64,000 nt of DNA. Origin: Candidatus Omnitrophota bacterium. GTDB lineage: Bacteria > Omnitrophota > Gorgyraeia > Gygaellales > Profunditerraquicolaceae. Shown here one piece after another: positions 19,587 to 51,882 of the stretch. Location: NCBI GenBank assembly GCA_028717245.1, contig JAQUOD010000001.1, positions 149,514-213,513 on the forward strand, read 5' to 3'. The translations under genes and the position numbers were made by a program. Every line of letters starts with the position of its first letter. Positions within the stretch are counted from its first letter, which is position 1. The notes beneath the pieces are model-generated. The model did not search any database and had not been told where the DNA came from. It was given only the letters and a program-made list of their open reading frames with translations.

Positions 19587-21896
19587 TTATTCACCTTGCT
19601 TATAACCCCAGGCTACCCAACCCGCCGTAGCTTTAATCTTCGTTATTTGGATATTATAAAAATTAAATTCATCAAATATCCTATATAGCTCATCGCGGCT
19701 GAATCTGTGCTCTACCGGAGCGGAAAATCTATCGTAAATATCTCCCCTCAAAGAGAATAAGGAACGGCCGAAATTGAAGGGTATTTTTTCATAGAGCGTA
19801 TAAGTAATCCTGTATCTTTTAAAAAATCTAGCCGGATAGGAGAATATTATCACAAATACGGGGGATATCAAGCAGGAAAAAAGATAAAGTATACGCGGCG
19901 GAATCTTAAGGGTAAACTTGCGAATAATATTGATTAACTTAATGCCAAGGTATTTTATTAGATTTTGCGCATGGTCCTCATATAGATAGAGAAAACACGG
20001 GCTGCCTTTTTTCAATACCCTGCCTATTTCTAAAAAGGCCTTTTTATAATCAGGTATATGGTGCAGGACGCCAAAAGAATAAACAAAGTCGCAAACCCCG
20101 TTTCTTAAAGGAATGTCTACTGCGGACCCTTTTATAATATTAACGTTATTCAGCTTACGGCTAAGCTTCGCGGCAACGTAAACGCCATCACTGATATCCA
20201 TGCCAATAACATGCAACATAGGATTATTTTTGGCCATAGCGAATGCATCCCATCCGCATCCGCAACCAATTTCTAACCCGCATGAGCCTCTGGTTATTTT
20301 TTCCGGTATCGTTTCTTGCATGAAATCCAGATGGTATTTTTTTGGGGGCGGCATATTATCACAGGTTGACCATAAGAAACCATACCTGAAACCGGTGTCC
20401 TTGGTAATAACGCGGCTATCCTTTTTTGATTTTAGTTTATTTTGTAACTGTAATTTATACTTTATGAAATATTTGGGGTCATATATCAATTTCAGTAATA
20501 TTTTGTAAAACACCTTAAACGGATGTCTAATTAAATATCGCATCTGGATCATTAATCTCTGGCGCATGACAAGAGAATATAGTCCATCTGTAGAAAAATT
20601 TTCAGTTGAAAAACTTGGATAGTCTGCCTTAAGGTCTTTATAGTTAAATTCACTGGGAATTAATTTTTTCTCTTTGCATAATTCCAGTAACCGCGTCCCT
20701 GGCAAGGGGGTAGCAAAAAAGAAGTTAACATTATCTGCCTGGAGTTTTTTCGCAAGTTTAAAAGTATTATTAAGGTGTTCGCGCGTTTCTCCCGGTAACC
20801 CCACTACAAAAAAAACCGCTGTTTCTATCTTTAATTTCTCTGCCTTATTTATTATGGGCTTTACCTGAGAAAGCATCAGGGGTTTTTTGATTATATTTTT
20901 TAAAACATGCTCATCTCCGGATTCGATTCCGATGCTTATCCTATAACAACCGCTCTGCTTCATCAGTTCCAGCATTCCATCGTCTAACGTCTGAAGAGCC
21001 ACCCCGTTGGGTACGCTCCATAAGAGATTAAATCCCTGCCTTATCATTTCTTTAAATATGGATTCTGCCCGATTTTTATCGAGAGTGAGGTTGTCATCTT
21101 CAAAGAGAAGCTCTTTAACGCCGAATTTATGGAAAAGATAGCTTATTTCCGACACTACCTGTCCTGCCGACCTTTTTCTATAATTCCTTCCCCATAGGTT
21201 ATGGATAGAACAGAATATACATTCAAAGGGGCACCCACGAGAGGTAATCATGGGTAGAAAAGGTGTTTTTTTTGCCGGGCTGCCATGGGGATTGTTAATC
21301 CTGAAATATTCCTCTAAGGGGAATATTTCCCAGTAAGGAAACGGTAGGCTGTCTAGATTTTCCAGATAATTTATTCTTGGGTTAATCTTTACGGAATCGT
21401 TATACCTAAAGCCAATCCCTTCTATATCCCGGATAGACCTTTTATTCTGAAGATGCTCCAAGAGTACTTTCAGGGTTATCTCGCCTTCTCCGATAACTAT
21501 AAAATCTACATTTTCATCCCTTAGGACATCTGCGGGAACCGCAGAGCAGTGCGCCCCGCCTAAAATGGTCACAATCCTTTTATCTATTTCCTTAACTATT
21601 TTACATATCGCATGGACATTCTCTGATTGAGATGAAAATAAACAGGATATGCCCACGGCATCCGGAGAAAAGTCTTTTACTCTTTTACCGATATCTTCAA
21701 AGGATAATCCGTATCTTAAGCATTCCATATCCACGCTGGCTTCTTTCTCGTAACCTTCGGCTAATGCATCTAAAACCGCAACTTGATAAGCATCTTTTAA
21801 TACAGCAGCTAGATATGCAAGGCCAAGAGGCGGATGACATTTCTTGGCCTCAGTTTTAAAAATAGTAAAAGGCGGCTGAATTAATAATATTTTCAT
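19587..21896 (-). CDS. Fusion of a B12-binding radical SAM domain and a class I SAM methyltransferase with a C-terminal membrane segment (B12-rSAM paralog 2 of 6)
   Basis: The sequence has an N-terminal B12-like domain and the radical SAM motif GCPFECIFC. The class I motif GLEIGCGCGWDAF lies around aa 540. A hydrophobic helix sits near the C-terminus. The length is 769 aa. Confidence 0.8.
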   Translation of the reverse strand: MKILLIQPPFTIFKTEAKKCHPPLGLAYLAAVLKDAYQVAVLDALAEGYEKEASVDMECLRYGLSFEDIGKRVKDFSPDAVGISCLFSSQSENVHAICKIVKEIDKRIVTILGGAHCSAVPADVLRDENVDFIVIGEGEITLKVLLEHLQNKRSIRDIEGIGFRYNDSVKINPRINYLENLDSLPFPYWEIFPLEEYFRINNPHGSPAKKTPFLPMITSRGCPFECIFCSIHNLWGRNYRKRSAGQVVSEISYLFHKFGVKELLFEDDNLTLDKNRAESIFKEMIRQGFNLLWSVPNGVALQTLDDGMLELMKQSGCYRISIGIESGDEHVLKNIIKKPLMLSQVKPIINKAEKLKIETAVFFVVGLPGETREHLNNTFKLAKKLQADNVNFFFATPLPGTRLLELCKEKKLIPSEFNYKDLKADYPSFSTENFSTDGLYSLVMRQRLMIQMRYLIRHPFKVFYKILLKLIYDPKYFIKYKLQLQNKLKSKKDSRVITKDTGFRYGFLWSTCDNMPPPKKYHLDFMQETIPEKITRGSCGLEIGCGCGWDAFAMAKNNPMLHVIGMDISDGVYVAAKLSRKLNNVNIIKGSAVDIPLRNGVCDFVYSFGVLHHIPDYKKAFLEIGRVLKKGSPCFLYLYEDHAQNLIKYLGIKLINIIRKFTLKIPPRILYLFSCLISPVFVIIFSYPARFFKRYRITYTLYEKIPFNFGRSLFSLRGDIYDRFSAPVEHRFSRDELYRIFDEFNFYNIQITKIKATAGWVAWGYKQGE

Positions 21897-22816
21897 TATC
21901 TATACATAATACGTAATTTAAGTAATGCGGCTAAATACCCGATTACTGCTTTATAATTAAAAGGATATTCGCATATCGACTTCTTATACCATTCTTTACT
22001 TTCTTCAAAATTATTTTTATGATGGAATGCCCTTCCGGCAGCACACATAACCGAAGACCTGCGTTTTCTTATCCTCTCCAGAAGGTCTTTATCTTGATGG
22101 CCGAATTTGGAAAAATGCGAATCTAAAAGAGAAAGCATATTTAAGGCATTTACTTCTGTACTCCGTAAAAAAGCACCTGTTTCCGTCACCCTATAGTACC
22201 CCAATACATCGAGTATAAAATAGAACCGGAATCTCATAGCTAATCTCAACCAGTACTCGTAGTCTTCGATCGTAAAAAGATTCTTTTCTTCGCAAAACCT
22301 GAGGGCATCATCAAAAAAAATACTTCTGCGAATAACTACTGCGGAGGTATGCAAACAGTTACCGTCCAGTAAAAGCTTTTTGTACATCTGGTCTACATGC
22401 GGGCCGTAAGATGTGTATCTTAGGATTTTATTACCGTGTATTATAGCCTCATTATGACAAACTAAACCTACCTGCGGCATATCGTTTAATATCTGCCTGC
22501 ATTTATCCAGTTTATCCTTATGCCAAAAATCATCCCCGTCCAAAAGGGCTATATATCTGCCCTTAGATAGTGAAATTCCTTTATTCCTTGCGCATGCGGG
22601 CAGGCCGCTATTTTCCTGATAAAAATATTTAACCCTGCTATCGGGAAAGGATAATACGATTTCGTGAATATTATCGGTAGAACCGTCATCAAGCACTATT
22701 ATTTCAAAATCTTGATATGTCTGCTGTAAAACAGACTCTATGGCCATAGCGATGTATTTAGCATGATTGTATGCTACGATCACAACGCTAAATTCCGGAG
22801 TTTCTTTAGTTGCCAT
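21896..22816 (-). CDS. Glycosyltransferase family 2 (GT-A)
   Basis: The motifs FSVVIVAYNHAKYI...IIVLDDGSTD and LDGDDFW are present. The length is 306 aa. Confidence 0.8.
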   Translation of the reverse strand: MATKETPEFSVVIVAYNHAKYIAMAIESVLQQTYQDFEIIVLDDGSTDNIHEIVLSFPDSRVKYFYQENSGLPACARNKGISLSKGRYIALLDGDDFWHKDKLDKCRQILNDMPQVGLVCHNEAIIHGNKILRYTSYGPHVDQMYKKLLLDGNCLHTSAVVIRRSIFFDDALRFCEEKNLFTIEDYEYWLRLAMRFRFYFILDVLGYYRVTETGAFLRSTEVNALNMLSLLDSHFSKFGHQDKDLLERIRKRRSSVMCAAGRAFHHKNNFEESKEWYKKSICEYPFNYKAVIGYLAALLKLRIMYR

Positions 22817-23708
22817 CTCTTCTTAAACCCTTCATCCTGATAAGTCCATCCCTTAATCCTAAAGGAATAAATCCTAATTCTTTTTCTAATTTCAAAGTCA
22901 GATATGATGTGTTTTTGGGCCTGGGCGCTATATGGGGAAAAAAACTGCTATCTACCGGCCTGATTAAGTCTTTATCCAGGCCAAAAATATCTGCAATAAT
23001 TATCGCGTATTCGTAACGGTTGACTATATCTTTGCCTGCGATATGATAAATGCCATGCTTATCTTTATCTATAAGGGACAGGATAACGTCAGCGCAATGG
23101 TATGCCGAGAGAGGGTTCTCATACACATCATTTACCATATTCACCCTTTCTTTTTTATTCAGTTTGTCCAGAAGGAAAGTAACTAAATTTTTTCTCTCAT
23201 TAGGATTATTCCAGCCATACATCAATATCGGACGGACTATTATGTATTTATTAAAAGTTTCTCTTATTCTCTTCTCGCACTCTAATTTTATTCTCCCATA
23301 ATTATTTATAGGGTTAGGCTCATCTTCTTCTCTATAAGGGGCGTTTTCTCCGTCAAAGACTGCGTTGGTTGATACATATAATAACCGTGCACCAGTCTCT
23401 TTACATAATTCTATGATATTTTGAGTCCCGATAACATTAGAGCGATATGCCTCTTCGTAATGCTGCTGGCAAAAATCGACATCAGCTATGCCGGTAGTAT
23501 GAATAACAACTTCTATATTATTATTTTCATTAAATATTTTCTGCATAGCGTTTTTATCTTGAATATCAGAACAATAATACTTTAGATTTTTAGTGTTTGC
23601 CATCTTATATTTCCCCAGGTATATACCTGTTATATTATGAGAAAATACATTCATTTCTACGAGTGATTTACCTAATAAACCAGTTACGCCAGTTATTAAA
23701 ATATTCAT
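22806..23708 (-). CDS. SDR-family NAD(P)-dependent sugar reductase/epimerase (RmlD-like)
   Basis: The N-terminal motif ILITGVTGLLG is a Rossmann motif. The length is 300 aa, which is RmlD-sized. Confidence 0.6.
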   Translation of the reverse strand: MNILITGVTGLLGKSLVEMNVFSHNITGIYLGKYKMANTKNLKYYCSDIQDKNAMQKIFNENNNIEVVIHTTGIADVDFCQQHYEEAYRSNVIGTQNIIELCKETGARLLYVSTNAVFDGENAPYREEDEPNPINNYGRIKLECEKRIRETFNKYIIVRPILMYGWNNPNERKNLVTFLLDKLNKKERVNMVNDVYENPLSAYHCADVILSLIDKDKHGIYHIAGKDIVNRYEYAIIIADIFGLDKDLIRPVDSSFFPHIAPRPKNTSYLTLKLEKELGFIPLGLRDGLIRMKGLRRDGN

Positions 23709-25516
23709 TTTAAAAGAGATAACCAGGCCTCTTCCCTGGTTGGTTCAGTAATAATATCGCCTGCCGGAAACGAAATATCCCCGTTGAAATTTATCAAATC
23801 TAAGTCAATCTCTTGTTTCTCCGTTATTTTATACGGCTTAAGACCCAGATCTTCAAGAATATCCAAATCTATCAATTCAGTATCTATTTTATAAACAGGT
23901 ATCCCTTTATTTAAAGCTTCTAAGGCTGCGGTTGTTGAGGAGTAAACGACCACATCAATCTCTTTTAAAATTTCATCTAACGGGCTCAAATTAACTATTG
24001 CTGCCTTAGCCGCCTTTCTTATCGCCTTTCTTAATTTATTATTGAATAATTCTGGGCGGGGTTTAACATATAACTTAAAGCTATGATTTTTTGAAACCAC
24101 ATTTCCCAAGTAATAAATAAGTTCCAGGCTGCGGGAAAGAGGTACCTGTAAGATAAATAATACGTTCTTTTCTGATTGATTTCCTCTCTTGACAAAACCG
24201 TCTTTTTCCGTTTTCTTTGCATATCTAATTGAGCCGCCGTTTATTATTTTTGTTTCCTCAAAACCCGCCGAATTCAAAACCTTTTCATAATGGGAACTAT
24301 TTGTGATTATGTAGTCTGGACAGGGAGTAAATTTATATTCTTGCGGGCTTAAGAAATGGTTTATTTCCATTGAAGATAATGTTGAATGCTGGTAACCCGC
24401 GCTTACAATACTATGATTAGCATTCTGAATAGCCAGAAGAATCATTTTCTCCCAAGGCTGGTTCTCAAAGGGATAGGTAACAAGTTTAAGCTGCTTATTC
24501 TCGTTAAAATAATTTTTGTAAGCGTAATATAAACACAGCCTGACCCAAAAAGAAGTCGAAGCTGATTCCTGGAGATATTCTCTAAAGAATAATGTGCTGT
24601 AGTCAGTACTTTGTAAAATTTGCGCCCTTTTATCAGATGGCATAATGGGATGTGTGAAAATTGTTCTCAGCCAATCCCCTATCTTTAAATAAAAATTAGG
24701 CAAAAAATAATTTCCTTTCACCTTCAAGATTATATTTTCAAGAAGACCGGAAAAGTCAATCTGTGAGCCCATTATTACTTTATGACCTTTTTTTTCATAA
24801 ATATCCCCGATAAGCGCAAGTTTATAAATATCCCTGAAGGCGCCTTCTTTAAAAGAGCGCTTATCAAAAAAAGTAAATACCATTACTTCAGCAGCAGAAT
24901 CATTTATTGATTTAAGCCTTTTAAAGAATTTTATTTTCAGATATCCTTCAAACAAAAAAAGAATAATTTTACGCCACAAGAATAAAGCAGTAGCTAACCT
25001 GGCTTTTATCCGATAATAGATAATTGAAACTAACATCCTAAGACAGACCCCTTTTATAAGAACAGAATTTATCCCTGTTTTATGGACTCCTGTTTCCAAA
25101 AGCCGATGCAAATAGGGATCTTCAATTATCACCAATAATGGAATTGTACGTAAAGATTTATCAAGCGCCCAACCTTGTATCAGGTTAAAATAGCAGAACA
25201 AAAGAAAGAAATCGGTTTGAAACGGAGATTTAGAAGCGAGCCTCGCTGCCCACCAGCGCAAATCATCCTTATATTGCAGATTAATCTTAGCAATCCAATC
25301 TAAAAAAGGTTCCTTTAAATCACGCGATAATTTATATAATTCTTTGGCGTAGCAGTACCTTTTGGTTCTAGAAAATAGAGTTTCAATCTTCTGTTTGCGT
25401 TCAATGTCAATCCCAAAATAACACCATCTCCATTCAGCTCCAATGGGAAAATCTCTTGCGTAATTTATAATCTGCCCTGCAGAACCTATTACTATTTTTT
25501 TTGATGTATCATACAT
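23705..25516 (-). CDS. Orphan 603-aa protein with a TagB/TagF-like GT-B C-terminal donor-binding motif. It is a putative transferase for a CMP/CDP-activated donor.
   Basis: The C-terminal segment IDVVVYSSTTAALEALNKGIPVYKI resembles the D-x-[LI]-[IV]-T-D-Y-S-S...KP-[IV] signature of CDP-glycerol glycerophosphotransferases. It is paralogous in pattern to 53979-55856 and 55860-57695. Confidence 0.4.
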   Translation of the reverse strand: MYDTSKKIVIGSAGQIINYARDFPIGAEWRWCYFGIDIERKQKIETLFSRTKRYCYAKELYKLSRDLKEPFLDWIAKINLQYKDDLRWWAARLASKSPFQTDFFLLFCYFNLIQGWALDKSLRTIPLLVIIEDPYLHRLLETGVHKTGINSVLIKGVCLRMLVSIIYYRIKARLATALFLWRKIILFLFEGYLKIKFFKRLKSINDSAAEVMVFTFFDKRSFKEGAFRDIYKLALIGDIYEKKGHKVIMGSQIDFSGLLENIILKVKGNYFLPNFYLKIGDWLRTIFTHPIMPSDKRAQILQSTDYSTLFFREYLQESASTSFWVRLCLYYAYKNYFNENKQLKLVTYPFENQPWEKMILLAIQNANHSIVSAGYQHSTLSSMEINHFLSPQEYKFTPCPDYIITNSSHYEKVLNSAGFEETKIINGGSIRYAKKTEKDGFVKRGNQSEKNVLFILQVPLSRSLELIYYLGNVVSKNHSFKLYVKPRPELFNNKLRKAIRKAAKAAIVNLSPLDEILKEIDVVVYSSTTAALEALNKGIPVYKIDTELIDLDILEDLGLKPYKITEKQEIDLDLINFNGDISFPAGDIITEPTREEAWLSLLK

Positions 25517-25531: not shown

Positions 25532-26248
25532 TTATTTTTTTAAGTATTTTTTAATCCACTCTTCTGTTTTTTTAAAATCCTCTTCCTTATGGACATCACA
25601 ACATTCATCTATAATAAACGGTTTTATATTGTTACCCATAAAAGCCCAGGGCTGCTGGCCGTTTTTTGAAAATATTGTTTTTTTTACATTTAGTACCCAG
25701 AAATTATGACAGAGAAAATATGACGGTTCCAACTCTTGCCTGTTTGTAGATATCGTTTTATTCTTAAAATCAAAAAAAGGCTCCAAAAATCCCTTCTTAT
25801 TAATCCTTTTCGCCCTAAAAGGATGGCGATCTAAATCTAAACAAACAGGAACAACTGCAGAAACCGATTTATTTGTTAAGATTTCTTTAATACAAATATC
25901 TATCCATTCTGTCTTTATCACTGCGGAATTTGCCAAGAGCACAATTAAGATGTCCGGTTTAAGTTTATCTAGCCTTTCTATTTCTCTCAAGGCATGCCTT
26001 ATGGCTTCAACGTGTTTTGAATTGGGCCTCGCCAGATATTCCGGCCTTAATATTTTTTTATATCCTATCCTACCCACAATTTCCAAAATCTTCTCGCTGT
26101 CACTACTGGCATAAAAATAGGAAATATATTTTGAGCGCCTGGCTGCTCTAGCGGGATAGCTAACCAAAGGTTTATTAAAAAGGGGTAGAATATTTTTATC
26201 TGCCAAGGTACTGCTGGCTTTTCCTGTTAATAATGCTGTTATTTTCAT
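25532..26248 (-). CDS. Divergent cytidylyltransferase (CMP-ulosonate synthetase family, NeuA/KdsB-like)
   Basis: The N-terminus is ITALLTGKASSTLADKNILPLFNKPLVSY, which aligns with the IxARxxSxRxPxKNxxxxxGxPLI pattern of acylneuraminate cytidylyltransferases but is divergent. The length is 238 aa. Confidence 0.5.
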   Translation of the reverse strand: MKITALLTGKASSTLADKNILPLFNKPLVSYPARAARRSKYISYFYASSDSEKILEIVGRIGYKKILRPEYLARPNSKHVEAIRHALREIERLDKLKPDILIVLLANSAVIKTEWIDICIKEILTNKSVSAVVPVCLDLDRHPFRAKRINKKGFLEPFFDFKNKTISTNRQELEPSYFLCHNFWVLNVKKTIFSKNGQQPWAFMGNNIKPFIIDECCDVHKEEDFKKTEEWIKKYLKK

Positions 26249-26268
26249 CGCGGTCTCCTGATAAAACG

Positions 26269-26937
26269 CTAAATTTGGAGCTCCTTTTTAAAGAATAGAG
26301 AAATTAAGTCGCTGGCTATAGTCAGGTCTGTGATGTCTTTAATCTCCATAGAAGCCAGCATATCGATTTCGTATAAATACGGCCTTATGCCGAAGTAGTT
26401 TTTATATTTTATATATATATCCTTTCTGGCTATGAAACAACCGTTAGTAATTTTATAAACCGGTTTAAGAGAATTTCTGTTTACAACCTTAGTCATCTCG
26501 AAATTAAGGGCCTGGTTTTTAAAAATAATGTATTCCTGTAACCTGGAAACCGAAATGAGGCTGTCGTATCCTGAACCCAATTTTAAGAATTTCTTCAGCA
26601 TATTATTAAAATCAATTACGCTGACAAAAGGCGAAGTCACATGCGTCCAGATAATAATTTCTTTATCTATTTCCTTTACGCATTCGATAATAGCTTTTGA
26701 CATATCGATTTTATGCCTTTTGATTATATTAACACCATAGGCTTTAGCTATTTTCGCAATCTTAGACGAAGGGGTAGAGATAAAAATATTTTCTCCCCTG
26801 ATAAGGTTTTTCACCTGAGCAATCTTCCATTCCAATAAAGTTAAATCACCGAACCTGACTAAATCGCCGTCTTCGCTATACCTGTTTTTTTCTAAAGCCG
26901 GGATAACTACTGCTGCATTTTTATACATTTTAATCAC
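26269..26937 (-). CDS. Divergent cytidylyltransferase (CMP-ulosonate synthetase family-like)
   Basis: The sequence has AAVVIPALEKNRY...GDLTLLEWKI and an IIWTHVTSPF (QxTSP-like) motif. The length is 222 aa. Confidence 0.5.
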   Translation of the reverse strand: MIKMYKNAAVVIPALEKNRYSEDGDLVRFGDLTLLEWKIAQVKNLIRGENIFISTPSSKIAKIAKAYGVNIIKRHKIDMSKAIIECVKEIDKEIIIWTHVTSPFVSVIDFNNMLKKFLKLGSGYDSLISVSRLQEYIIFKNQALNFEMTKVVNRNSLKPVYKITNGCFIARKDIYIKYKNYFGIRPYLYEIDMLASMEIKDITDLTIASDLISLFFKKELQI

Positions 26938-27701
26938 AATCTCCTTTCCAACTGCGTAAGCCTGGCTATTTCTGCTTCTATAAACAGATCATTTATCTCT
27001 TTTTTCGAGAGTATATATAACTCTTCAAATTTTAAGGCCGCCCTTAAGGCATTGGGATTATTCAGTATTATCTGCGCGGGTAAAATTACTTTTCTCGTTT
27101 CGATCTTATCGAATAATCTAAGGATCTTCTTATGCTTCCTAAATATCTCCAGGCTCCTTGCGCTGATACCACCTCCGATGCATGCCTGTAAATTATAATG
27201 TTTGATCTTACGTCCGACATTTTCTAAAATATTAAGAATAAAATTAGTATCGGGATGAATATTTTCATCAAAATAAGACTCGCTTAAATCAGTCCGGCCT
27301 ATCGTAATACCGTCAATCTTATCCTTTGCGTATCCCAATATCTCATCAATTTGGTTTACGGCGCTTTTTGTTTCTATATTTAAAATTAGCTGCAGCTTTG
27401 TCTTTTTATAAATATTTTTAGATGCCTGGACAAATTTCCTGACCCCGAATTTGCTTTCTACCATAGGCGCGATCAAACCATCTACCCCGATATCCACTGA
27501 ATTTTTTATATCGGTTACCGCCTCCACTCCGCCGATTTTCAAGAATAATTTAACCCCTATCCTCGATGTCAATCTCCTTAACTTCACCGCATCCCTGAAT
27601 GAAGATCCTTCTGCTTCAAATTCCGCTTTAATTCCCTTAAGGCCGTATTGTTGTTTTAATTTTTCCAGCTGCTCAAATAATTTATTCTCCAGTCCGTACA
27701 T
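26934..27701 (-). CDS. HpcH/HpaI-family (class II, pyruvate-dependent) aldolase/lyase
   Basis: The motifs GVDGLIAPMVES, NIETKSAVNQIDEIL and DGITIGRTDLS match the conserved HpcH/HpaI/CitE blocks. The length is 255 aa. Confidence 0.65.
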   Translation of the reverse strand: MYGLENKLFEQLEKLKQQYGLKGIKAEFEAEGSSFRDAVKLRRLTSRIGVKLFLKIGGVEAVTDIKNSVDIGVDGLIAPMVESKFGVRKFVQASKNIYKKTKLQLILNIETKSAVNQIDEILGYAKDKIDGITIGRTDLSESYFDENIHPDTNFILNILENVGRKIKHYNLQACIGGGISARSLEIFRKHKKILRLFDKIETRKVILPAQIILNNPNALRAALKFEELYILSKKEINDLFIEAEIARLTQLERRL

Positions 27702-27702
27702 T

Positions 27703-28461
27703 TTAAGCTCCTAAGATTTTTTTTATTTTATAAATGGCTTCTTTTTCGCATTCCGAATTATTATCTGTTAACACGTATCCCCATCCAGCATGGATCCTTA
27801 CCAGACCCGTAATTCCGCCGCAAGAACATAAATGGTCTCTAGAGTCATCTATGATAAGGGACTTGCGCACCCGGTATTTATCTATTATAAATTTAACGAC
27901 CCCGCCCTTTGAATTGAACCTTTTGTAATATTTCCCGTCATATATATTATCGCTGGAAAAATTAACCTTATGGACTTTTAGCAGCTGTAAAACTGTATCC
28001 TTATCTTTTGTGGTGATAATAAAAAAAGGGGGCTTTGCCTCCTTAATTATTTCCGAAATCTTATATAAAAAATTATATGGGGTATTTAAAGAAAGCCAAA
28101 ATTTAGGGTATTTTACCCTGATATATCTTCTGGCTTTTAAAAAACGTTTTTCAAAAATCTGCTTTTCTAGAGAATCTATATTACAATGTAACCTAAAGTC
28201 CCGCGCAATATCAATGCTCCTATCTTCTGACTTTTTATCTATCGCTTTAAGTAAATCATAATAATCTGTGGCGCAATTGATAAGGAACCTGTATTTCTTG
28301 AAGATTTTAAAATGTTCGGATTCAAAGTTAATGCTACCGATAGAGCGTTTATTCGTAGTGGCAAGCGTACTTACGCAATAAGCCTCTTTTAGGGTATCGA
28401 AGAGTACTCCATCTAAGTCCAAAAAGATTGCCTTATCAATTACTTTGCTCTTATTTGCCAA
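27703..28461 (-). CDS. HAD-superfamily hydrolase (phosphatase-like)
   Basis: The N-terminal motif IFLDLDGVLFDT is HAD motif I (DxDGxL). The length is 252 aa. Confidence 0.6.
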   Translation of the reverse strand: MANKSKVIDKAIFLDLDGVLFDTLKEAYCVSTLATTNKRSIGSINFESEHFKIFKKYRFLINCATDYYDLLKAIDKKSEDRSIDIARDFRLHCNIDSLEKQIFEKRFLKARRYIRVKYPKFWLSLNTPYNFLYKISEIIKEAKPPFFIITTKDKDTVLQLLKVHKVNFSSDNIYDGKYYKRFNSKGGVVKFIIDKYRVRKSLIIDDSRDHLCSCGGITGLVRIHAGWGYVLTDNNSECEKEAIYKIKKILGA

Positions 28462-29520
28462 TTATCTTCTCCAGATTTTAATAAATGTTTGCCAAAATCG
28501 TTGCATATATGCTTTATTGCCGATGGTGACCCGAATATAGTCATTTAAAAAACCCTGTCTAAATCTGCCGTTTACCAGGATACCGTCCTTTGCCAGACTA
28601 TTTATAATCTCATCTACCCGCTTCCCGCACTTAATCAATATAAAGTTCGCATGCCCCCGGAGGTATTCTATTGCCTCTATGTCGAGTTTTTGTGCTAGAT
28701 ATTGTTTACCCTCATGCGCATCTTTAATTAAATCGTTAATAACGGCGGGGTTATCCAGCAGCTTTTGGCCAACTAATACCGCTAATCCATTTACGTCAAA
28801 AGTGGGCTTTACTTTTCTTAAATACTCTATTATTTTGTTTGATGCCGCGGCATAACCTAATCTTAGCGCAGCCATACCCAGTAGCTTAGAGAATGTCCTC
28901 AGCACAATAAGATTGGGATAAATTTTTACCTTTTCTATTACGGAATGAGGATAAAAATAAAAATATGCCTCATCCACCACTATAAGCACATCATTATTTG
29001 CTGCTTTTTTGATAATTTCAATTAAATCCCCTTTTTCTAAAACGCTTCCCGTAGGATTATTAGGGTTTACCACTACCGCAAGGCGTATGTCCCTGGAAAG
29101 CACATTCATGAATTCTTTAACGGGGAAAGACATATCGTTCTTATAATCTAATATTACGGGTTTAGCTTCAAACATCTGACAATATACCGGATACATGGCA
29201 AAGGTAGGATTGGTTAGTAAAACCCTGTCCCCCTTCGATACGTATGCATCAAAGATATATTTTATGGCTGCGTCTGAGCCATTTGTCAAACAGATATTTC
29301 CCGGTTTAAGGTTACTATGTTCGGCTACCTTCTTTTGCAGCAGCTTGTATTCAGGATAAGTAGATAGAGACCCAGGATCAACGCCGGAAAAAATCTTTTT
29401 TAAAAAAGTATCCGGCAGACCCGGAATTCCCTCGTTCATATCTAAATGCAAAAGTCCCTTGCGTCCTTCTTCTAATTTAGCCCTATATAGCCGCGCCAGA
29501 TGAAGCTTAGTTTTTATCAT
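28462..29520 (-). CDS. PLP-dependent aminotransferase class I/II (HisC/CobD-like)
   Basis: The motifs VVNPNNPTGSV and RTFSKLLGMAALRLGYAAA (PLP-lysine motif) are present. I move the start to the internal ATG at 29520 (MIKTKLHL...) because the track start at 29643 would overlap the upstream radical SAM gene by 137 nt. Confidence 0.8.
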   Translation of the reverse strand: MIKTKLHLARLYRAKLEEGRKGLLHLDMNEGIPGLPDTFLKKIFSGVDPGSLSTYPEYKLLQKKVAEHSNLKPGNICLTNGSDAAIKYIFDAYVSKGDRVLLTNPTFAMYPVYCQMFEAKPVILDYKNDMSFPVKEFMNVLSRDIRLAVVVNPNNPTGSVLEKGDLIEIIKKAANNDVLIVVDEAYFYFYPHSVIEKVKIYPNLIVLRTFSKLLGMAALRLGYAAASNKIIEYLRKVKPTFDVNGLAVLVGQKLLDNPAVINDLIKDAHEGKQYLAQKLDIEAIEYLRGHANFILIKCGKRVDEIINSLAKDGILVNGRFRQGFLNDYIRVTIGNKAYMQRFWQTFIKIWRR

Positions 29521-30484
29521 GGATTGGTTTTTTAATCTGCGCTGTCCGCCACGGACAACCATTGCAGGCTTTGACTTCATGAGAACGACCTTTATGATGT
29601 AATGCGCGTGCCTGATTGACCCTATCATCATGCCAAGAGTCATAAATGCTTCTAGTTTTTACATTTCCAATATCAAGCAGGTGCAGGTCATCATTATTAC
29701 AAGGCATAATCGTTCCATCCCATTCAATGGTCATACGTTGCCATAACTGAGGGCAGGCCCAGTTGTTGATTAAATCTTCTTTTCGATTTATGCTATCCTT
29801 GTAATCAACCGCAGCTACCTCATCACAGCGGTTTTTCCAAAAAGATTTGTAAGTTTCGAGGTCTAAATCAGAAAAATAAACAGTCTGAATTCTTATTCGA
29901 GGAAAATTCACCCCTCTTTTACGACGCAGGTCTAATAATGCGTCTATATTTTTTATAATGGTATTGAATTTTGCCCCGATCCTCTGCTTCTCAAAAATTT
30001 CAGGGTCTACCCCATCAATAGAAATTGAAATGCGGTCTAATCCGGCACCTATCATTTCTTCGCTCTTTTCTTTAGTCAGCAGCACGCCATTAGTATTAAA
30101 ATAAACATCTAAAATACCTTTTTTCTTTGCATAAGAAACCATCTTTGCTATTTCCTCGTGCAATAATGGTTCACCGCGATAACTTAATTTTATTGCCCAA
30201 AGCCTATTTTCCGAACCCTCGTCTATAATCCTTTTATATAAATCTATATCCATATCGCTTAGTTTGGTATTTTTAAGTAGATGCAACTTGTCGCAGAATG
30301 TGCATTTAATATTACAGCGATTGGTTATCTCAATATCCAAATGCATGGGGAAATCCCTAACGATAAAATTAGTGGGATATTCTACCCAACATCTACGGTA
30401 TTCTTTATACTCCCCTGACTGTTCTTCAGAAAAAGATGTGCCAGCGAGAGAATAAAAATTCGAGTTTGGTTTTATATAGGCCAT
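29507..30484 (-). CDS. Radical SAM protein with a C-terminal SPASM/twitch-type Cys-rich domain (BtrN/anSME-like)
   Basis: The N-terminal CxxxCxxC motif is NRCNIKCTFC. C-terminal cysteines lie at ...WACPQLW...MPCNND...CNGCPW. The length is 325 aa. Confidence 0.8.
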   Translation of the reverse strand: MAYIKPNSNFYSLAGTSFSEEQSGEYKEYRRCWVEYPTNFIVRDFPMHLDIEITNRCNIKCTFCDKLHLLKNTKLSDMDIDLYKRIIDEGSENRLWAIKLSYRGEPLLHEEIAKMVSYAKKKGILDVYFNTNGVLLTKEKSEEMIGAGLDRISISIDGVDPEIFEKQRIGAKFNTIIKNIDALLDLRRKRGVNFPRIRIQTVYFSDLDLETYKSFWKNRCDEVAAVDYKDSINRKEDLINNWACPQLWQRMTIEWDGTIMPCNNDDLHLLDIGNVKTRSIYDSWHDDRVNQARALHHKGRSHEVKACNGCPWRTAQIKKPIHDKN

Positions 30485-30516: not shown

Positions 30517-31965
30517 TTAACTACGTTTAGGCAGCATTATATTACCGCCCAATTTAGCTATCTTTCTAAATCTCCTGAAGAACGGCCCTAAAAATATATT
30601 ACGCTCCAACCTCTCATAGTTACTTATCCAAAGAACCCGCCTTGCTCTTAATAGGTCGATGTCTTTATAGACCAGATATTGAAATCTTTTGTATAATTTC
30701 ATAAGTTTGGCATTCTTAATAGTGGGTAAAGTAAGCCTTGACTGTCGCCTATCAAAAAATTTACATGGGTTATTCTTCCTTAATAAACCTTTCTCTCGGC
30801 AGTAATCCCCCAGCTCCGTACCTTCGTAAGGGCTAAATATATTTACTCCAGTTACCGTAGGATTCATTTTTCTATTAAAATTTATTGTCTCTAAAATAGT
30901 TTCCTCTGTTTCGTTAGGAACCCCGATAATATTTACTGACTGCGTCTCAAGACCCGCCTCTTTTGCCCACGTAAATACATTCTCCAATTGTGCCTTTGTA
31001 ATATCCCTTTTAAAAACAACATTCCTGATATAATCGTTAGCGGATTCTACGGCTAAGAAAATCCTATAGCATCCGGCATCTTTAAGCCTAAAAAGAATAT
31101 CTTTAGTGCAGACATCCGGCCTGATGTGACACATAAAGGAAAGTTTAAATCTTTTCTTGTAATTAGGTAAGAAATCATCTAGCCAATTTCTATTTAAGAT
31201 AAAAAGGTCATCGATAAAATATAGTTTGTCGAATGTATATTTGGTTTTTAGCACATCTATCTCTTCAAGGCTCTTTTCTACGCTATTATATCTTATAATA
31301 TTATTTTCTTCTCCGTAAACGCGCGCAATCGCATAATTAGAACAATAGGTACAATGAAAAGGGCATCCGCGGCTGGTCATTATTGTCGCCATGCTGTTAT
31401 TTTCGTTTATAATGGACTGGTAATCATAAATATCCCTGTCCGGAAAAGGCAAATCCTCGAGATTTTTAACCCTGGGCCTTAATTTGTTCTTTACTAATCT
31501 ATTTGTATCTACATAGCAAAAATTATCCGTATCCTGATAGCGGGCACCTGCCCGGACATTCGAAACGAAATCTACGAATGAAGACTCGCTCTCTCCTATA
31601 AAAAACCCGTCAAATAAGAAAGAAGAAAAAAGAGATTCAGGGAATATGGTCGGATGTACACCGCCGCATACAATAATACCTTTATGAATCCGCTTTATCA
31701 TTTTTGCCAATTCGCAAATAAATACAAACTGCGAAGAAACTGCCGAAAAACCGATAACTTTAGGCCTCTCCTCTAAAACAGCTTTTAATACCTTTTTATA
31801 ATCCTTTTTAGACCGAACAATAATCAGTTTTGGCTGAAAACCGCTATTCTTAAGAACGCTGGATAAATATCCTATTCCAAAACTATAAACATCAGAGTGA
31901 AACCCATTTATATTGGTGTAAACAAATAAAACATCCGCCCCCTTAGACACTTTCCTCTCTCCCAT
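30517..31965 (-). CDS. B12-binding domain radical SAM protein, paralog 3 of 6
   Basis: The sequence has an N-terminal B12-like domain and GCPFHCTYCSN. The length is 482 aa. Confidence 0.8.
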   Translation of the reverse strand: MGERKVSKGADVLFVYTNINGFHSDVYSFGIGYLSSVLKNSGFQPKLIIVRSKKDYKKVLKAVLEERPKVIGFSAVSSQFVFICELAKMIKRIHKGIIVCGGVHPTIFPESLFSSFLFDGFFIGESESSFVDFVSNVRAGARYQDTDNFCYVDTNRLVKNKLRPRVKNLEDLPFPDRDIYDYQSIINENNSMATIMTSRGCPFHCTYCSNYAIARVYGEENNIIRYNSVEKSLEEIDVLKTKYTFDKLYFIDDLFILNRNWLDDFLPNYKKRFKLSFMCHIRPDVCTKDILFRLKDAGCYRIFLAVESANDYIRNVVFKRDITKAQLENVFTWAKEAGLETQSVNIIGVPNETEETILETINFNRKMNPTVTGVNIFSPYEGTELGDYCREKGLLRKNNPCKFFDRRQSRLTLPTIKNAKLMKLYKRFQYLVYKDIDLLRARRVLWISNYERLERNIFLGPFFRRFRKIAKLGGNIMLPKRS

Positions 31966-46531: not shown

Positions 46532-46545
46532 TTGCCTAAAATTTC

Positions 46546-47625: not shown

Positions 47626-47633
47626 CTCCTCTA

Positions 47634-51207: not shown

Positions 51208-51215
51208 AATAAGTC

Positions 51216-51875: not shown

Positions 51876-51882
51876 ATTAATA

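What the first reader, a model, noticed from the sequence alone, without database searches (positions are those of the whole stretch)
25532..30484. Non-canonical third CMP-activation module of an HpcH-family aldolase, a HAD phosphatase, a SPASM radical SAM protein, a HisC-like aminotransferase and two divergent cytidylyltransferases
No NeuB/KdsA-type synthase is present in this module. Instead, a class II pyruvate aldolase (HpcH/HpaI motifs GVDGLIAPMVES, NIETKSAV) sits with a HAD phosphatase and two NeuA/KdsB-family cytidylyltransferases. This suggests an alternative, aldolase-based route to a 2-keto-3-deoxy (ulosonic) acid that is then CMP-activated. The overlapping SPASM radical SAM and class I/II aminotransferase pair resembles the BtrN-dehydrogenase/transaminase logic of oxidise-then-aminate used in aminoglycoside pathways. 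The module could therefore make an amino-ulosonic acid by a previously undescribed pathway. An alternative reading is an amino-alcohol or phospho-alcohol decoration that is CMP/CDP-activated and added by the adjacent TagF-like transferase at 23705-25516.
Basis: inference. Interest (0 to 1): 0.75.

Follow-up and report, generated by a model that had tools for sequence, protein, structure and literature searches.

The report
Aldolase-based CMP-sugar-acid gene cassette
Six adjacent genes in a cell-surface sugar locus of an uncultured Omnitrophota bacterium contain a widespread, unstudied four-gene cassette that most likely builds an acidic sugar with a pyruvate aldolase in place of the usual synthase and then attaches CMP to it.

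Summary
Six tightly packed minus-strand ORFs at 25532-30484 encode a radical SAM protein, a HisC-like aminotransferase, a HAD-type hydrolase, an HpcH-like TIM-barrel protein and two CTP_transf_3 (NeuA/KdsB-family) proteins. No NeuB/KdsA synthase is among them.

- **Core unit.** It is a conserved cassette, [HAD]-HpcH-like-CT1-second cytidylyltransferase, seen in 56 loci from several phyla.
- **CT1.** In all 41 testable loci it lies directly after the HpcH-like gene. It has lost the canonical CTP-binding and Mg-binding residues.
- **HpcH-like protein.** It keeps the Mg-binding Glu/Asp pair but is equally distant from HpaI aldolases, CitE lyases and pyruvate kinase.
- **Phosphorylated product.** More distant relatives sit beside unrelated phosphatases or a cyclising AroB-like phospholyase. 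These lie in clusters that match the published pyruvate aldolase to ThDP ligase scheme for acyl-branched sugars.
- **Tailoring genes.** The radical SAM protein has four extra cysteines with BtrN-like spacing. It and the aminotransferase occur only in some lineages.
- **Neighbouring 'TagF-like' gene.** It is a generic GT-B protein with only faint hints of KpsC/KpsS.

Nothing was shown biochemically, and the sugar is unknown. Best reading: a new variant of the KDO/sialic-acid type of pathway.

The parts
29507..30484 (-). Radical SAM enzyme with one twitch-like auxiliary Fe-S site; an accessory tailoring gene
   Evidence: The CxxxCxxC motif is at C57/C61/C64. Pfam gives Radical_SAM 74.8 bits and SPASM 46.8 bits. 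There are only four further cysteines, C244, C262, C307 and C310, and all four are conserved in orthologues. The best PDB sequence hits are BtrN and MoaA at about 45 bits, covering the core region only. Orthologues lie next to the cassette in L010, L096, L100, L105 and L107.
28462..29520 (-). HisC-like class I/II aminotransferase; an accessory tailoring gene (the longest ORF runs to 29643, the true start is probably M42)
   Evidence: Aminotran_1_2 scores 141.6 bits. NCBIfam hisC scores 256.8, below its cut-off of 276.55. The best PDB hits are histidinol-phosphate aminotransferases at 122.7 bits. The PLP lysine is present in TFSK. The start is set by orthologues in L007, L087 and L089, which also lie directly upstream of the HAD gene.
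27703..28461 (-). Divergent HAD-superfamily hydrolase; the inferred phosphatase of the cassette
   Evidence: Motif I is FLDLDGVLFD, motif II is ITTKDK and motif IV is IIDDS. Pfam Hydrolase scores 17.6, below its cut-off of 26.4. An orthologue sits directly upstream of the HpcH-like gene in 20 of 35 testable cassette loci.
26934..27701 (-). HpcH-like TIM-barrel protein of the pyruvate/PEP-binding superfamily; the inferred pyruvate aldolase that makes a 3-deoxy-2-ulosonate phosphate
26269..26937 (-). CT1: degenerate NeuA/KdsB-fold paralogue, always paired with the HpcH-like gene; role unknown
   Evidence: CTP_transf_3 scores 39.0 bits. The P-loop reads IPA(L/Q)(E/D)xN..GDL, so the canonical Arg and Lys are lost. 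The DxD motif is replaced by E-I-K. CT1 lies directly downstream of the HpcH-like gene in 41 of 41 testable loci. All homologues are standalone proteins of about 220 aa and are unnamed.
25532..26248 (-). CT2: NeuA-like cytidylyltransferase; the inferred CMP-activating enzyme
   Evidence: CTP_transf_3 scores 41.3 bits. PseF scores 57.5, below its cut-off of 205.7. The best PDB hit is V. cholerae CMP-NeuAc synthetase 6ifd, E 5e-14, over residues 4-233. It keeps a P-loop Lys, the K-N pair and the NRQEL..Y motif. The DxD motif reads D-V-H.
23705..25516 (-). TIGR04326-family GT-B protein; candidate transferase for the activated product (outside the finding's coordinates)
   Evidence: NCBIfam TIGR04326 scores 76.1, below its cut-off of 250. 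The AF2 model has pLDDT 89.8. Foldseek finds only generic GT-B folds, with TagF first appearing at rank 30. Homologues accompany the cassette in L087, L089, L010, L024, L029, L105 and L107. Family members give sub-threshold hits to DUF6716, Capsule_synth and polyST. The near-invariant K-x-H-P motif reads K-P-R-P here.
30517..31965 (-). B12-binding radical SAM enzyme, 32 nt upstream in the same gene run; a recurrent neighbour of this cassette type
   Evidence: B12-binding scores 58.7 bits and Radical_SAM 72.3 bits. B12 radical SAM genes flank the cassette in L007, L010, L087, L089, L096, L102, L105 and L107.

Best explanation
The segment carries a conserved, uncharacterised cassette plus tailoring genes found only in some lineages. 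Together they most likely make a CMP-activated 3-deoxy-2-ulosonic (keto-deoxy) sugar acid by a route analogous to the KDO, KDN and sialic-acid pathways but without homology to their synthase step.

Proposed steps, all inferred and none demonstrated:
1. The HpcH-like Mg-dependent TIM-barrel enzyme (26934-27701) forms the enolate of pyruvate (possibly from PEP) and adds it to a phosphorylated aldose. The product is a 3-deoxy-2-ulosonate omega-phosphate.
2. The HAD hydrolase (27703-28461) removes the phosphate, which makes the condensation irreversible.
3. In this lineage the twitch-type radical SAM enzyme (29507-30484) oxidises a side-chain hydroxyl to a carbonyl, and the HisC-like aminotransferase (28462-29520) converts it to an amine. 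The result would be an amino-ulosonic acid. The order of this step relative to step 2 is unknown.
4. CT2 (25532-26248), which is NeuA-like, couples the anomeric hydroxyl to CMP using CTP.
5. CT1 (26269-26937) is probably not a canonical cytidylyltransferase. It may be a sugar-binding or CMP-sugar-binding partner of the aldolase or of CT2.
6. The GT-B protein at 23705-25516 is the candidate transferase.

The identity of the sugar (chain length, stereochemistry) is not determined.
For: **Cassette conservation**
- The HAD-HpcH-like-CT-CT arrangement occurs in Sulfurospirillum multivorans and Aliarcobacter butzleri surface-polysaccharide loci. It also occurs in Omnitrophota, Planctomycetota, Nitrospinota, Pelagibacteraceae, Bacteriovoracaceae and Helicobacter genomes and in marine metagenomes.
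- Across 56 CT1-bearing loci, the HpcH-like gene is directly upstream in 41 of 41 testable cases. HAD lies two genes upstream in 20 of 35. A second cytidylyltransferase lies within two genes in 29 of 33.

**Enzyme family**
- The model is confident (pLDDT 91.2).
- Its nearest structures all bind pyruvate, oxaloacetate or PEP through Mg.
- The Glu/Asp metal pair is retained and is invariant in 120 family members.

**Evidence that the product carries a phosphate**
- In more distant family members (32-41% identity) the adjacent gene varies. It is one of three unrelated HAD families, or an SDR plus an AroB-related cyclising sugar-phosphate phospholyase (TIGR04425, 404.7 bits against a cut-off of 400). 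An IMPase-family gene lies two genes upstream in two Treponemataceae loci.

**Precedent for aldolase chemistry in glycan building**
- Those distant relatives lie in RfbF/RfbG/RfbH plus ThDP-enzyme clusters. These match the published scheme in which a pyruvate aldolase supplies a gamma-hydroxy alpha-keto acid to a YerE-like ThDP ligase. In that work the M. marinum gene MMAR_2331, of the aldolase/citrate lyase family, is needed for caryophyllose (PMC9306805; PMC5706390).
- A distant homologue on the Ilyobacter polytropus megaplasmid sits among organic-acid catabolism genes, with no CoA-related genes nearby.

**CMP activation**
- CT2 aligns end to end with a solved CMP-NeuAc synthetase and keeps the sugar-binding RQ..Y motif.
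- Every second cytidylyltransferase tested best matches PseF and then KdsB.

**Tailoring**
- The aminotransferase lies next to HAD in four genomes.
- The radical SAM protein recurs with the cassette and is paired with either an aminotransferase or a classical SDR. That pattern fits a keto intermediate.
- Because cassettes with and without the aminotransferase both end in cytidylyltransferases, the amine is probably not introduced at C2.
Against: - No activity, substrate or product is known for any member of this HpcH-like family, for CT1 or for CT2.
- The TIM-barrel protein is no closer to aldolases than to pyruvate kinase or CitE lyases. Its Pfam match covers only residues 49-142. The essential HpaI Arg70 seems to be a Lys (K55), and His45 could not be aligned.
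- The family has an unusual invariant K-x-E-x-E-x-E strand, which could signal different chemistry.
- CT1 lacks the catalytic residues. CT2 has D-V-H instead of DxD and lacks the QPTSP motif. So it is not certain that either one is an active CMP-transferase.
- HAD is missing from 15 of 35 cassettes.
- Some close relatives in spirochaetes have no glycan genes nearby.
- I could not check whether MMAR_2331 belongs to this same subfamily.
- HisC-type enzymes normally act on 2-oxo acids or on ketones next to a phosphate ester, so amination at C2 remains possible.
- The whole 64 kb window is one dense minus-strand glycan locus. Adjacency alone is therefore weak evidence for the accessory genes.
Confidence: 0.5

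Rival explanations
1. The aldolase-like enzyme makes a gamma-hydroxy alpha-keto acid (phosphate). The HisC-like aminotransferase converts it at C2 into a gamma-hydroxy alpha-amino acid. This non-sugar acid is attached as a substituent, for example amide-linked or phospho-linked, to a sugar made elsewhere in the locus. The CT-fold proteins act on a different substrate.
For: HisC-family enzymes are 2-oxo-acid or phospho-ketone aminotransferases. The aminotransferase lies directly next to HAD and the HpcH-like gene in four genomes. Aldolase-derived alpha-keto acids are known glycan building blocks (PMC9306805).
Against: Most cassettes have no aminotransferase, yet they still carry the pair of cytidylyltransferases directly after the aldolase-like gene. 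This ties the aldolase product itself to CT-fold proteins. No amide ligase or ATP-grasp gene lies next to the cassette. PF02348 enzymes need the 2-keto (anomeric) centre, which transamination at C2 would remove.
Confidence: 0.13
2. The HpcH-like enzyme acts on a sugar that is already nucleotide-activated. It adds a three-carbon pyruvate unit to a keto or aldehyde group of a CMP-linked or CDP-linked sugar. CT1 is a degenerate nucleotide-sugar-binding partner that presents this substrate.
For: Distant relatives are embedded in CDP-3,6-dideoxyhexose clusters. CT1 keeps the sugar-side and cytidine-side residues (TSPF, R74, R154, TNG) but has lost the triphosphate-binding ones. It is always paired with the HpcH-like gene. 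An extended nucleotide-sugar-type SDR often lies between CT1 and CT2 in other loci.
Against: The recurrent phosphatases and the cyclising phospholyase next to the aldolase-like gene point to a phosphomonoester intermediate, not a nucleotide sugar. In the published scheme for the CDP-sugar clusters, the aldolase acts on free pyruvate and an aldehyde before ThDP ligation.
Confidence: 0.15
3. The module makes a CMP-activated or CDP-activated amino-alcohol, phospho-alcohol or phosphonate decoration, which a TagF-like phosphotransferase adds to the glycan.
For: HisC-like enzymes act on phospho-ketones. From memory, Cj1437 in Campylobacter converts DHAP to serinol phosphate. A HAD phosphatase is present. 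The neighbouring B12 radical SAM protein has weak similarity to P-methyltransferases, PhpK family at 108.8 bits against a cut-off of 600. TagF does appear among the fold hits of the neighbouring GT-B protein.
Against: Both nucleotidyltransferases are of the NeuA/KdsB type, which makes CMP-ulosonates. They are not the IspD, TagD or LicC types that make CDP-alcohols or CMP-phosphonates. No PEP mutase is present. The TIM-barrel protein lacks the ICL/PEP-mutase family signature, and those folds are not among its top hits. No family member hits Glyphos_transf; the faint hits are to Kdo-transferase and polysialyltransferase families. TagF ranks only 30th, with TM-score of 0.27.
Confidence: 0.08
4. 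The six genes do not form one pathway. The core cassette is a unit, but the radical SAM protein and the aminotransferase serve another sugar of this very large glycan locus and are neighbours by chance.
For: All of the roughly 56 ORFs of at least 150 aa in the window lie on the minus strand and are tightly packed. The locus also encodes legionaminic-type, heptose and rhamnose pathway genes and several B12 radical SAM enzymes. The radical SAM protein is near the cassette in only 5 of 56 loci and the HisC-like aminotransferase in only 2, not counting the window itself or loci missed or set aside as duplicates.
Against: The aminotransferase to HAD junction is conserved in the window, L007, L087 and L089. 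The order radical SAM, partner gene, HAD recurs in Nitrospinota-type loci. The aminotransferase start overlaps the radical SAM stop, and HAD starts at the base after the aminotransferase stop.
Confidence: 0.1

Closest known systems
KDO pathway (KdsA synthase, KdsC HAD phosphatase, KdsB CMP-KDO synthetase) and the KDN/Neu5Ac-9-phosphate pathways
   Same: The three-step logic is the same: condense a C3 2-oxo-acid unit with an aldose phosphate, remove the phosphate with a HAD enzyme, and activate with CMP using a PF02348 enzyme. The gene set HAD plus C-C-forming TIM barrel plus NeuA/KdsB-type transferase mirrors it.
   Different: The condensing enzyme is not homologous to KdsA or NeuB. It belongs to the pyruvate kinase/HpcH/CitE superfamily and would probably use pyruvate, not PEP. 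There is an extra, always-present, catalytically degenerate cytidylyltransferase paralogue. None of the proteins reaches any curated equivalog cut-off.
Class II (metal-dependent) pyruvate aldolases HpaI/HpcH, YfaU and GarL
   Different: Identity is only 14-22%. The Pfam match is partial. Arg70 is apparently replaced by Lys55. The first barrel strand seems to be replaced by an N-terminal helix. There is a family-specific invariant KAEFEAEG strand and an ETRK motif. The protein is equally similar to pyruvate kinase and CitE/CLYBL. The setting is biosynthetic glycan loci, not aromatic-acid or sugar-acid catabolism.
Aldolase plus YerE-like ThDP ligase route to acyl-branched sugars (erwiniose, caryophyllose, gastriose; PMC9306805)
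   Same: A pyruvate aldolase makes a hydroxylated alpha-keto acid as a glycan building block. Relatives of the window protein at 32-41% identity sit in exactly this kind of cluster, with RfbF, RfbG, RfbH, a ThDP enzyme and a reductase.
   Different: In the window and its close relatives there is no ThDP enzyme and no CDP-hexose pathway next to the aldolase-like gene. Two CT-fold genes follow instead. The keto acid would therefore be CMP-activated as a sugar in its own right and not decarboxylated onto another sugar. The published aldolases are ErwI (BphI-like), MygI, whose family is not stated in the passages I read, and MMAR_2331. I could not test whether MMAR_2331 is in this subfamily.
BtrN and its aminotransferase partner in 2-deoxystreptamine biosynthesis; KdnB and KdnA in Kdo8N biosynthesis
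   Same: Both pairs oxidise a hydroxyl and then transaminate the carbonyl. The window radical SAM protein has CxxxCxxC plus four cysteines, C244-x17-C262-x44-C307-x2-C310. This resembles the single auxiliary cluster of BtrN as I recall it. BtrN is the joint top PDB sequence hit.
   Different: Similarity to BtrN is limited to the radical SAM core (45 bits, residues 49-153) and equals the similarity to MoaA. The aminotransferase is HisC-type, not DegT-type. KdnB is an iron alcohol dehydrogenase, not a radical SAM enzyme (from memory). The substrate is unknown.

Membership tests
HpcH/HpaI class II pyruvate aldolase (PF03328) | Pfam domain score above the gathering cut-off | tested here: met
   48.6 bits against a cut-off of 25, but only residues 49-142 match profile positions 59-157 of 221.
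HpcH/HpaI class II pyruvate aldolase (PF03328) | Divalent-metal ligands Glu149 and Asp175 (E. coli HpaI numbering) | tested here: met
   E110 and D138 align to them by phmmer against AbHpaI and YfaU. Both residues are invariant in 120 family members.
HpcH/HpaI class II pyruvate aldolase (PF03328) | Catalytic Arg70 and His45 | tested here: inconclusive
   The N-terminal half did not align. By spacing from the aligned helix, the invariant K55 at the end of strand 52-55 takes the place of Arg70. No His equivalent could be identified.
HpcH/HpaI class II pyruvate aldolase (PF03328) | Closer to aldolases than to other branches of the superfamily | tested here: not met
HpcH/HpaI class II pyruvate aldolase (PF03328) | Pyruvate-dependent aldol activity | not testable with these tools
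   Needs an enzyme assay.
CMP-ulosonate synthetases (PF02348: NeuA, KdsB, PseF) | Pfam domain score above the gathering cut-off | tested here: met
   CT1 scores 39.0 bits and CT2 41.3 bits against a cut-off of 22.6.
CMP-ulosonate synthetases (PF02348: NeuA, KdsB, PseF) | P-loop Arg and Lys that bind the CTP phosphates, and the Mg-binding DxD motif (roles recalled from N. meningitidis NeuA) | tested here: not met
   This row is for CT1 (26269-26937). The Arg is replaced by L/Q, K-N by G-D, and D-I-D by E-I-K. The changes are consistent across the 18 aligned family members.
CMP-ulosonate synthetases (PF02348: NeuA, KdsB, PseF) | The same catalytic motifs, in CT2 (25532-26248) | tested here: inconclusive
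   The Arg is replaced by Lys. The K-N pair and the RQ..Y motif are kept. The first Asp is kept, but the second is His (D-V-H). QPTSP reads LANSA.
CMP-ulosonate synthetases (PF02348: NeuA, KdsB, PseF) | Curated equivalog score (PseF, KdsB) | tested here: not met
   CT2 scores 57.5 for PseF against a cut-off of 205.7. CT1 scores 26.9 for KdsB against a cut-off of 255.
HAD-superfamily phosphatase | Motifs I (DxD), II (S/T) and IV (DD), and a Pfam score above the cut-off | tested here: inconclusive
   DLDGV, TTKDK and IIDDS are present. Pfam Hydrolase scores 17.6, below its cut-off of 26.4. The only PDB hit has E 0.11.
SPASM or twitch radical SAM enzymes (BtrN-like dehydrogenases) | CxxxCxxC motif plus auxiliary-cluster cysteines | tested here: met
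   C57, C61 and C64 form the core motif. C244, C262, C307 and C310 are conserved in seven orthologues. The Pfam SPASM domain scores 46.8 bits.
SPASM or twitch radical SAM enzymes (BtrN-like dehydrogenases) | Full seven-cysteine SPASM motif (two auxiliary clusters) | tested here: not met
   Only four cysteines lie downstream of the core, and there are none after CxxC. This is a truncated, twitch-like domain.
SPASM or twitch radical SAM enzymes (BtrN-like dehydrogenases) | Alcohol dehydrogenase activity on a sugar or cyclitol | not testable with these tools
   The BtrN hit is 45 bits over the generic core and ties with MoaA.
Histidinol-phosphate aminotransferase (HisC, TIGR01141) | Equivalog cut-off score | tested here: not met
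   256.8 bits, below the cut-off of 276.55. It is a HisC-like paralogue in a glycan operon, not the housekeeping HisC.
TagF-like CDP-glycerol glycerophosphotransferases (PF04464) | Glyphos_transf domain, or TagF as the closest fold | tested here: not met
   This row is for 23705-25516. None of 32 family members gives a PF04464 hit, even at E of 1 or less. TagF first appears at Foldseek rank 30, with TM-score of 0.27.
CMP-sugar GT-B transferases (KpsC/KpsS Kdo transferases, bacterial sialyltransferases) | Domain hit, and the His-Pro motif (the motif is recalled from memory) | tested here: inconclusive
   Capsule_synth matches 3 of 32 members (best E 0.0032) and polyST matches 1 of 32 (E 0.071). 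All are below threshold. The family has a near-invariant K-x-H-P motif, but the window copy reads K-P-R-P. TagF-like enzymes may carry a similar motif.

The most novel reading that the evidence does not exclude
A widespread, undescribed route to CMP-activated keto-deoxy sugar acids is present in SAR11-type marine bacteria, Nitrospinota, Campylobacterota, Omnitrophota and others. A new family of Mg-dependent pyruvate-enolate TIM-barrel enzymes replaces the PEP-dependent NeuB/KdsA synthases. It works with an obligatory, catalytically degenerate cytidylyltransferase paralogue whose role is new. In this window the product is further converted by a twitch radical SAM dehydrogenase and a HisC-type aminotransferase into an amino-ulosonic acid not yet known from any glycan.
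Probability: 0.35. Interest if true: 0.78.

Novelty: new variant of a known kind. Interest (0 to 1): 0.62.

Why it matters
Keto-deoxy sugar acids such as KDO, sialic, legionaminic and pseudaminic acids shape how bacterial surfaces are recognised by hosts and phages. Genome surveys predict them by searching for NeuB/KdsA-type synthases. If this cassette makes a CMP-activated ulosonic acid with an unrelated aldolase, such surveys miss a whole class of acidic surface sugars. The organisms affected include abundant marine bacteria and the emerging pathogen Aliarcobacter butzleri.

The cassette would also add a new biosynthetic enzyme family to the biocatalysis toolbox of pyruvate aldolases. It poses a clear question about the role of a conserved 'dead' cytidylyltransferase. 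The hypothesis can be tested directly, because cultivable carriers exist and the four proteins are small and predicted to be well folded.

Tried and rejected
1. **Phosphonate reading (PEP-mutase-like enzyme plus CMP-phosphonate).** Rejected. ICL/PEP-mutase folds are not among the top fold hits. The transferases are the NeuA/KdsB type. The similarity of the B12 radical SAM enzymes to P-methyltransferases is far below cut-off.
2. **TagF-like identity of 23705-25516.** Not supported.
3. **DegT-type aminotransferase as a cassette member.** It appeared in 12 of 56 loci. Locus maps show that it belongs to neighbouring nucleotide-sugar pathways and has no fixed position.
4. **RmlD-like SDR (22806-23708) as a cassette member.** It follows CT2 in L087 and L089. 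However, it scores 185.9 for RmlD and the window has an RmlC gene, so it may simply be rhamnose biosynthesis. Left open.
5. **Fusion (Rosetta-stone) evidence.** None found. HpcH-like homologues are all 255-268 aa and CT1 homologues 202-228 aa.
6. **Literature.** Five keyword searches for this gene combination found nothing relevant. The only useful papers came from the caryophyllose lead.
7. **Phage and plasmid collections.** No phage hit. Only three distant plasmid hits.
8. **Residue-level mapping of HpaI Arg70 and His45.** Failed.
9. **Subfamily check of MMAR_2331.** I could not obtain its sequence, so I could not test whether the genetically characterised aldolase belongs to this subfamily.

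Full report
**1. What is in the sequence**

Positions 25532-30484 hold six minus-strand ORFs. Pfam and NCBIfam classify them as follows:

| Coordinates | Assignment | Key scores |
|---|---|---|
| 29507-30484 | Radical SAM with SPASM-type C-terminus | Radical_SAM 74.8, SPASM 46.8 bits |
| 28462-29643 | Class I/II aminotransferase, closest to HisC | 141.6 bits; hisC 256.8 vs cut-off 276.55 |
| 27703-28461 | Divergent HAD hydrolase | Hydrolase 17.6 vs cut-off 26.4; motifs DLDGV, TTKDK, IIDDS |
| 26934-27701 | HpcH_HpaI protein | 48.6 bits, residues 49-142 only |
| 26269-26937 | CTP_transf_3 (CT1) | 39.0 bits |
| 25532-26248 | CTP_transf_3 (CT2) | 41.3 bits |

None of the six has a NeuB or KdsA domain. 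Orthologues place the aminotransferase start at M42, position 29520, which overlaps the radical SAM stop by 14 nt. HAD starts at the base after the aminotransferase stop. The HpcH-like gene starts 1 nt after HAD ends. CT1 overlaps or abuts the HpcH-like gene. CT2 follows after 20 nt, and a 603-aa gene follows 15 nt later.

The window is from a Candidatus Omnitrophica MAG, since the HpcH-like protein is 100% identical to P0001. All ORFs of at least 150 aa in the 64 kb lie on the minus strand. The locus also carries a canonical legionaminic-type module with its own synthase and cytidylyltransferase at 45830-53966: NeuB 516.6 bits, NeuC 486.3 bits, a LegC-like protein at 413.4 bits and a PseF-like protein at 155.6 bits. 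Heptose genes, an RmlC gene and four B12 radical SAM genes are present too.

**2. The core is a conserved cassette**

The HpcH-like protein has 1772 database homologues. It is 55-60% identical to proteins of Sulfurospirillum multivorans and Aliarcobacter species. In those genomes it sits in O-antigen-type loci, in the order 239-aa protein (an orthologue of the window HAD), HpcH-like, CT, CT. No radical SAM protein or HisC-like gene is adjacent there.

A scan of species-representative genomes found at least 535 relatives. A metagenome scan seeded with CT1 found 58 more loci. Over 56 non-redundant CT1-bearing loci:
- The HpcH-like gene is directly upstream of CT1 in 41 of 41 cases where the sequence allows a test.
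- The HAD orthologue lies two genes upstream in 20 of 35.
- A second CT-fold gene lies within two genes downstream in 29 of 33. Sixteen are of the window's CT2 type and 13 are a canonical type.

Four architectures recur:
1. HAD-HpcH-CT1-canonical CT.
2. [HAD]-HpcH-CT1-extended SDR-CT2.
3. Twitch radical SAM-classical SDR-HAD-HpcH-CT1-CT2-TIGR04326-family protein-B12 radical SAM. This is the Nitrospinota type.
4. HisC-like aminotransferase-HAD-HpcH-CT1-CT2-RmlD-like SDR-GT2. This is the Omnitrophota and Planctomycetota type (L007, L087, L089).

The window combines types 3 and 4. So the radical SAM protein and the aminotransferase are accessories found only in some lineages, and the four genes between them are the core unit.

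**3. The TIM-barrel protein**

- The AlphaFold model is confident, with pLDDT 91.2.
- Foldseek ranks HpaI-type class II aldolases first, at E about 1e-9 and TM-score about 0.6. CLYBL and pyruvate kinase follow.
- Sequence alignments place E110 and D138 on the HpaI metal ligands E149 and D175. The N-terminal half did not align. By spacing, invariant K55 takes the place of Arg70.
- Across 120 non-identical family members, the invariant or near-invariant residues (at least 99%) include K25, E27, E29, E31, K55, E82, E110, R136, D138, E201, R203 and K204.

I conclude that this is a distinct family of the pyruvate/PEP-binding superfamily. It very probably stabilises a pyruvate enolate on a divalent metal. 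It is not shown to be an aldolase.

**4. Context evidence for the chemistry**

Family members at 32-41% identity occur in Melainabacteria, Elusimicrobiota, gut Campylobacter MAGs, Chlorobiaceae and others. They lie in a very regular cluster:
- glucose-1-phosphate cytidylyltransferase, 400 bits;
- CDP-glucose 4,6-dehydratase, 478 bits;
- RfbH/E1, 672 bits;
- an SDR;
- the HpcH-like gene;
- a ThDP enzyme resembling acetolactate synthase;
- GT2 and a GtrA-like gene.

Between the HpcH-like gene and the ThDP gene lies one of several alternatives. It is a HAD from one of three unrelated families, or an SDR plus an AroB-related cyclising sugar-phosphate phospholyase (TIGR04425, 404.7 bits against a cut-off of 400). 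Two Treponemataceae loci have an IMPase-family gene two genes upstream of the HpcH-like gene. Different phosphate-removing enzymes in the same position argue that the product carries a phosphate ester.

This cluster type matches a published scheme. In it a pyruvate aldolase supplies a gamma-hydroxy alpha-keto acid, which a YerE-like ThDP enzyme joins to CDP-3,6-dideoxy-4-ketohexose. The products are erwiniose, caryophyllose and gastriose. The M. marinum gene MMAR_2331, of the aldolase/citrate lyase family, is required for caryophyllose (PMC9306805; PMC5706390). I could not check whether MMAR_2331 belongs to this subfamily.

A still more distant homologue on the Ilyobacter polytropus megaplasmid sits among aconitase, isopropylmalate-dehydrogenase-like and hydroxy-acid genes. 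That again points to free-acid chemistry.

**5. The two CT-fold proteins differ**

CT2 aligns over residues 4-233 with V. cholerae CMP-NeuAc synthetase, E 5e-14. It keeps a basic P-loop residue, the K-N pair and the RQ..Y sugar motif. The DxD motif reads D-V-H, and QPTSP is changed.

CT1 has systematically lost the canonical residues in all 18 aligned homologues. The P-loop is IPA(L/Q)(E/D)xN..GDL, and the DxD position reads E-I-K. TSPF, R74, R154 and TNG are kept. All CT1 homologues are standalone and unnamed. The residue roles are taken from my memory of NeuA structures.

CT1 is therefore unlikely to be a normal cytidylyltransferase. Its fixed pairing with the HpcH-like gene suggests a partner or presenting role. 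In other cassettes the second CT is a canonical type with IPVRxGSxR..K and DID. All second CTs tested best match PseF and then KdsB, far below cut-off.

**6. Tailoring genes and the neighbour**

The radical SAM protein has CxxxCxxC plus exactly four more cysteines, C244, C262, C307 and C310. All are conserved in orthologues. This is a truncated, twitch-like domain, not a full SPASM domain. The spacing resembles BtrN as I recall it. BtrN is the joint best PDB sequence hit, but only over the generic core and level with MoaA.

The partner gene of the radical SAM protein is the HisC-like aminotransferase here and a classical SDR in Nitrospinota-type loci. That pattern fits a keto intermediate that is either aminated or reduced. 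Cassettes with and without the aminotransferase both end in CT genes, so the amine is probably not placed at C2.

The 603-aa neighbour at 23705-25516 belongs to the TIGR04326 family, at 76 bits against a cut-off of 250. Homologues accompany the cassette in at least seven other loci. Its model (pLDDT 89.8) matches only generic GT-B folds, and TagF first appears at rank 30. Family members give sub-threshold hits to DUF6716, Capsule_synth (KpsC/KpsS) and a polysialyltransferase family. None hits Glyphos_transf. 'TagF-like' is not supported. A CMP-sugar transferase is possible but unproven.

**7. Most likely mechanism**

My confidence is about 0.5. All steps are inferred:
1. Pyruvate (or PEP) plus a phosphorylated aldose gives a 3-deoxy-2-ulosonate phosphate, made by the HpcH-like enzyme.
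2. HAD removes the phosphate.
3. In this lineage, the radical SAM enzyme and the aminotransferase introduce a side-chain amine.
4. CT2 makes the CMP-sugar. CT1 assists in an unknown way.
5. The GT-B protein transfers the sugar.

The sugar itself is unknown. The AroB-like alternative in relatives hints at a DAHP-like seven-carbon acid, but that is speculation. The rival explanations are listed separately.

**8. Comparison with known systems and novelty**

The logic matches the KDO, KDN and Neu5Ac-9-phosphate pathways. The condensing enzyme is unrelated to KdsA and NeuB, a degenerate CT paralogue is obligatory, and no component reaches a curated family cut-off. Five keyword searches of the literature found no description of this gene combination.

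I rate it a new variant of a known kind. It is interesting because it is widespread and testable, but it rests wholly on inference.

Noticed in passing
L040, L046, L058, L067, L077 and about 40 other loci (for example L067:5865-15715): Melainabacteria, Elusimicrobiota, gut Campylobacter MAGs, Chlorobiaceae and others carry a regular cluster: RfbF-RfbG-RfbH-SDR-HpcH-like-(HAD, or SDR plus AroB-related cyclising phospholyase TIGR04425)-ThDP enzyme-GT2-GtrA. It matches the published aldolase/YerE scheme for acyl-branched sugars such as caryophyllose. This suggests such sugars are far more widespread than the few known cases. The AroB-like variant might build a carbocyclic side chain.
   Followed up: partly
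window 24053-24064: The TIGR04326-family protein has K-P-R-P (Arg codon cgc at 24056-24058) where 31 of 32 aligned family members have the near-invariant K-x-H-P motif. This is a single-base difference from His (cac). It could be a real variant, a loss of function or an assembly error.
   Followed up: partly
window 19587-21896, 30517-31965, 36824-38524, 47634-49022: One glycan locus holds four B12-binding radical SAM genes, and one of them is fused to a SAM methyltransferase domain. B12 radical SAM genes also flank the cassette in many related loci. This hints at extensive radical C-methylation or other radical tailoring of surface sugars.
   Followed up: no
window 45830-53966: A complete legionaminic-acid-type nonulosonic acid module is present: an SDR, a LegC-like aminotransferase, NeuB, NeuC, a PtmE-like nucleotidyltransferase and a PseF-like cytidylyltransferase. 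A B12 radical SAM gene (47634-49022) is inserted between NeuC and the nucleotidyltransferase.
   Followed up: partly
L001:12107-18530 (Sulfurospirillum multivorans CP042966): A block of anti-phage defence genes sits inside the O-antigen locus directly after the cassette. It includes ThsB-TIR, Macro, DarT, ThsA-Macro, an SMC-like ATPase and an HNH protein.
   Followed up: no
L116 (metagenome contig PJEL010001833.1): One contig carries a full cassette (HAD-HpcH-CT1-CT-SDR). A few genes downstream it has a second HpcH-like paralogue, followed directly by a CT2-type gene with no CT1. This is an exception to the usual pairing that may help separate the roles of CT1 and CT2.
   Followed up: no
L148:9001-9774 (Ilyobacter polytropus pILYOP01): A 33% identical homologue lies in an organic-acid catabolism cluster with aconitase, two isocitrate/isopropylmalate dehydrogenase-family genes, PrpF, a 2-hydroxyacid dehydrogenase and a 2-hydroxycarboxylate transporter. 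The family therefore also has non-glycan, free-acid lyase or aldolase members.
   Followed up: partly
L008, L009, L011, L016, L018, L023, L026, L028: Spirochaete members (Treponemataceae, Brevinematales) are 46-58% identical to the window protein. They have no cytidylyltransferase, HAD or glycan genes nearby; their neighbours include aspartyl-tRNA synthetase, a sensor kinase and DUF434/DUF5616. Their role is unexplained and does not fit the cassette model.
   Followed up: no
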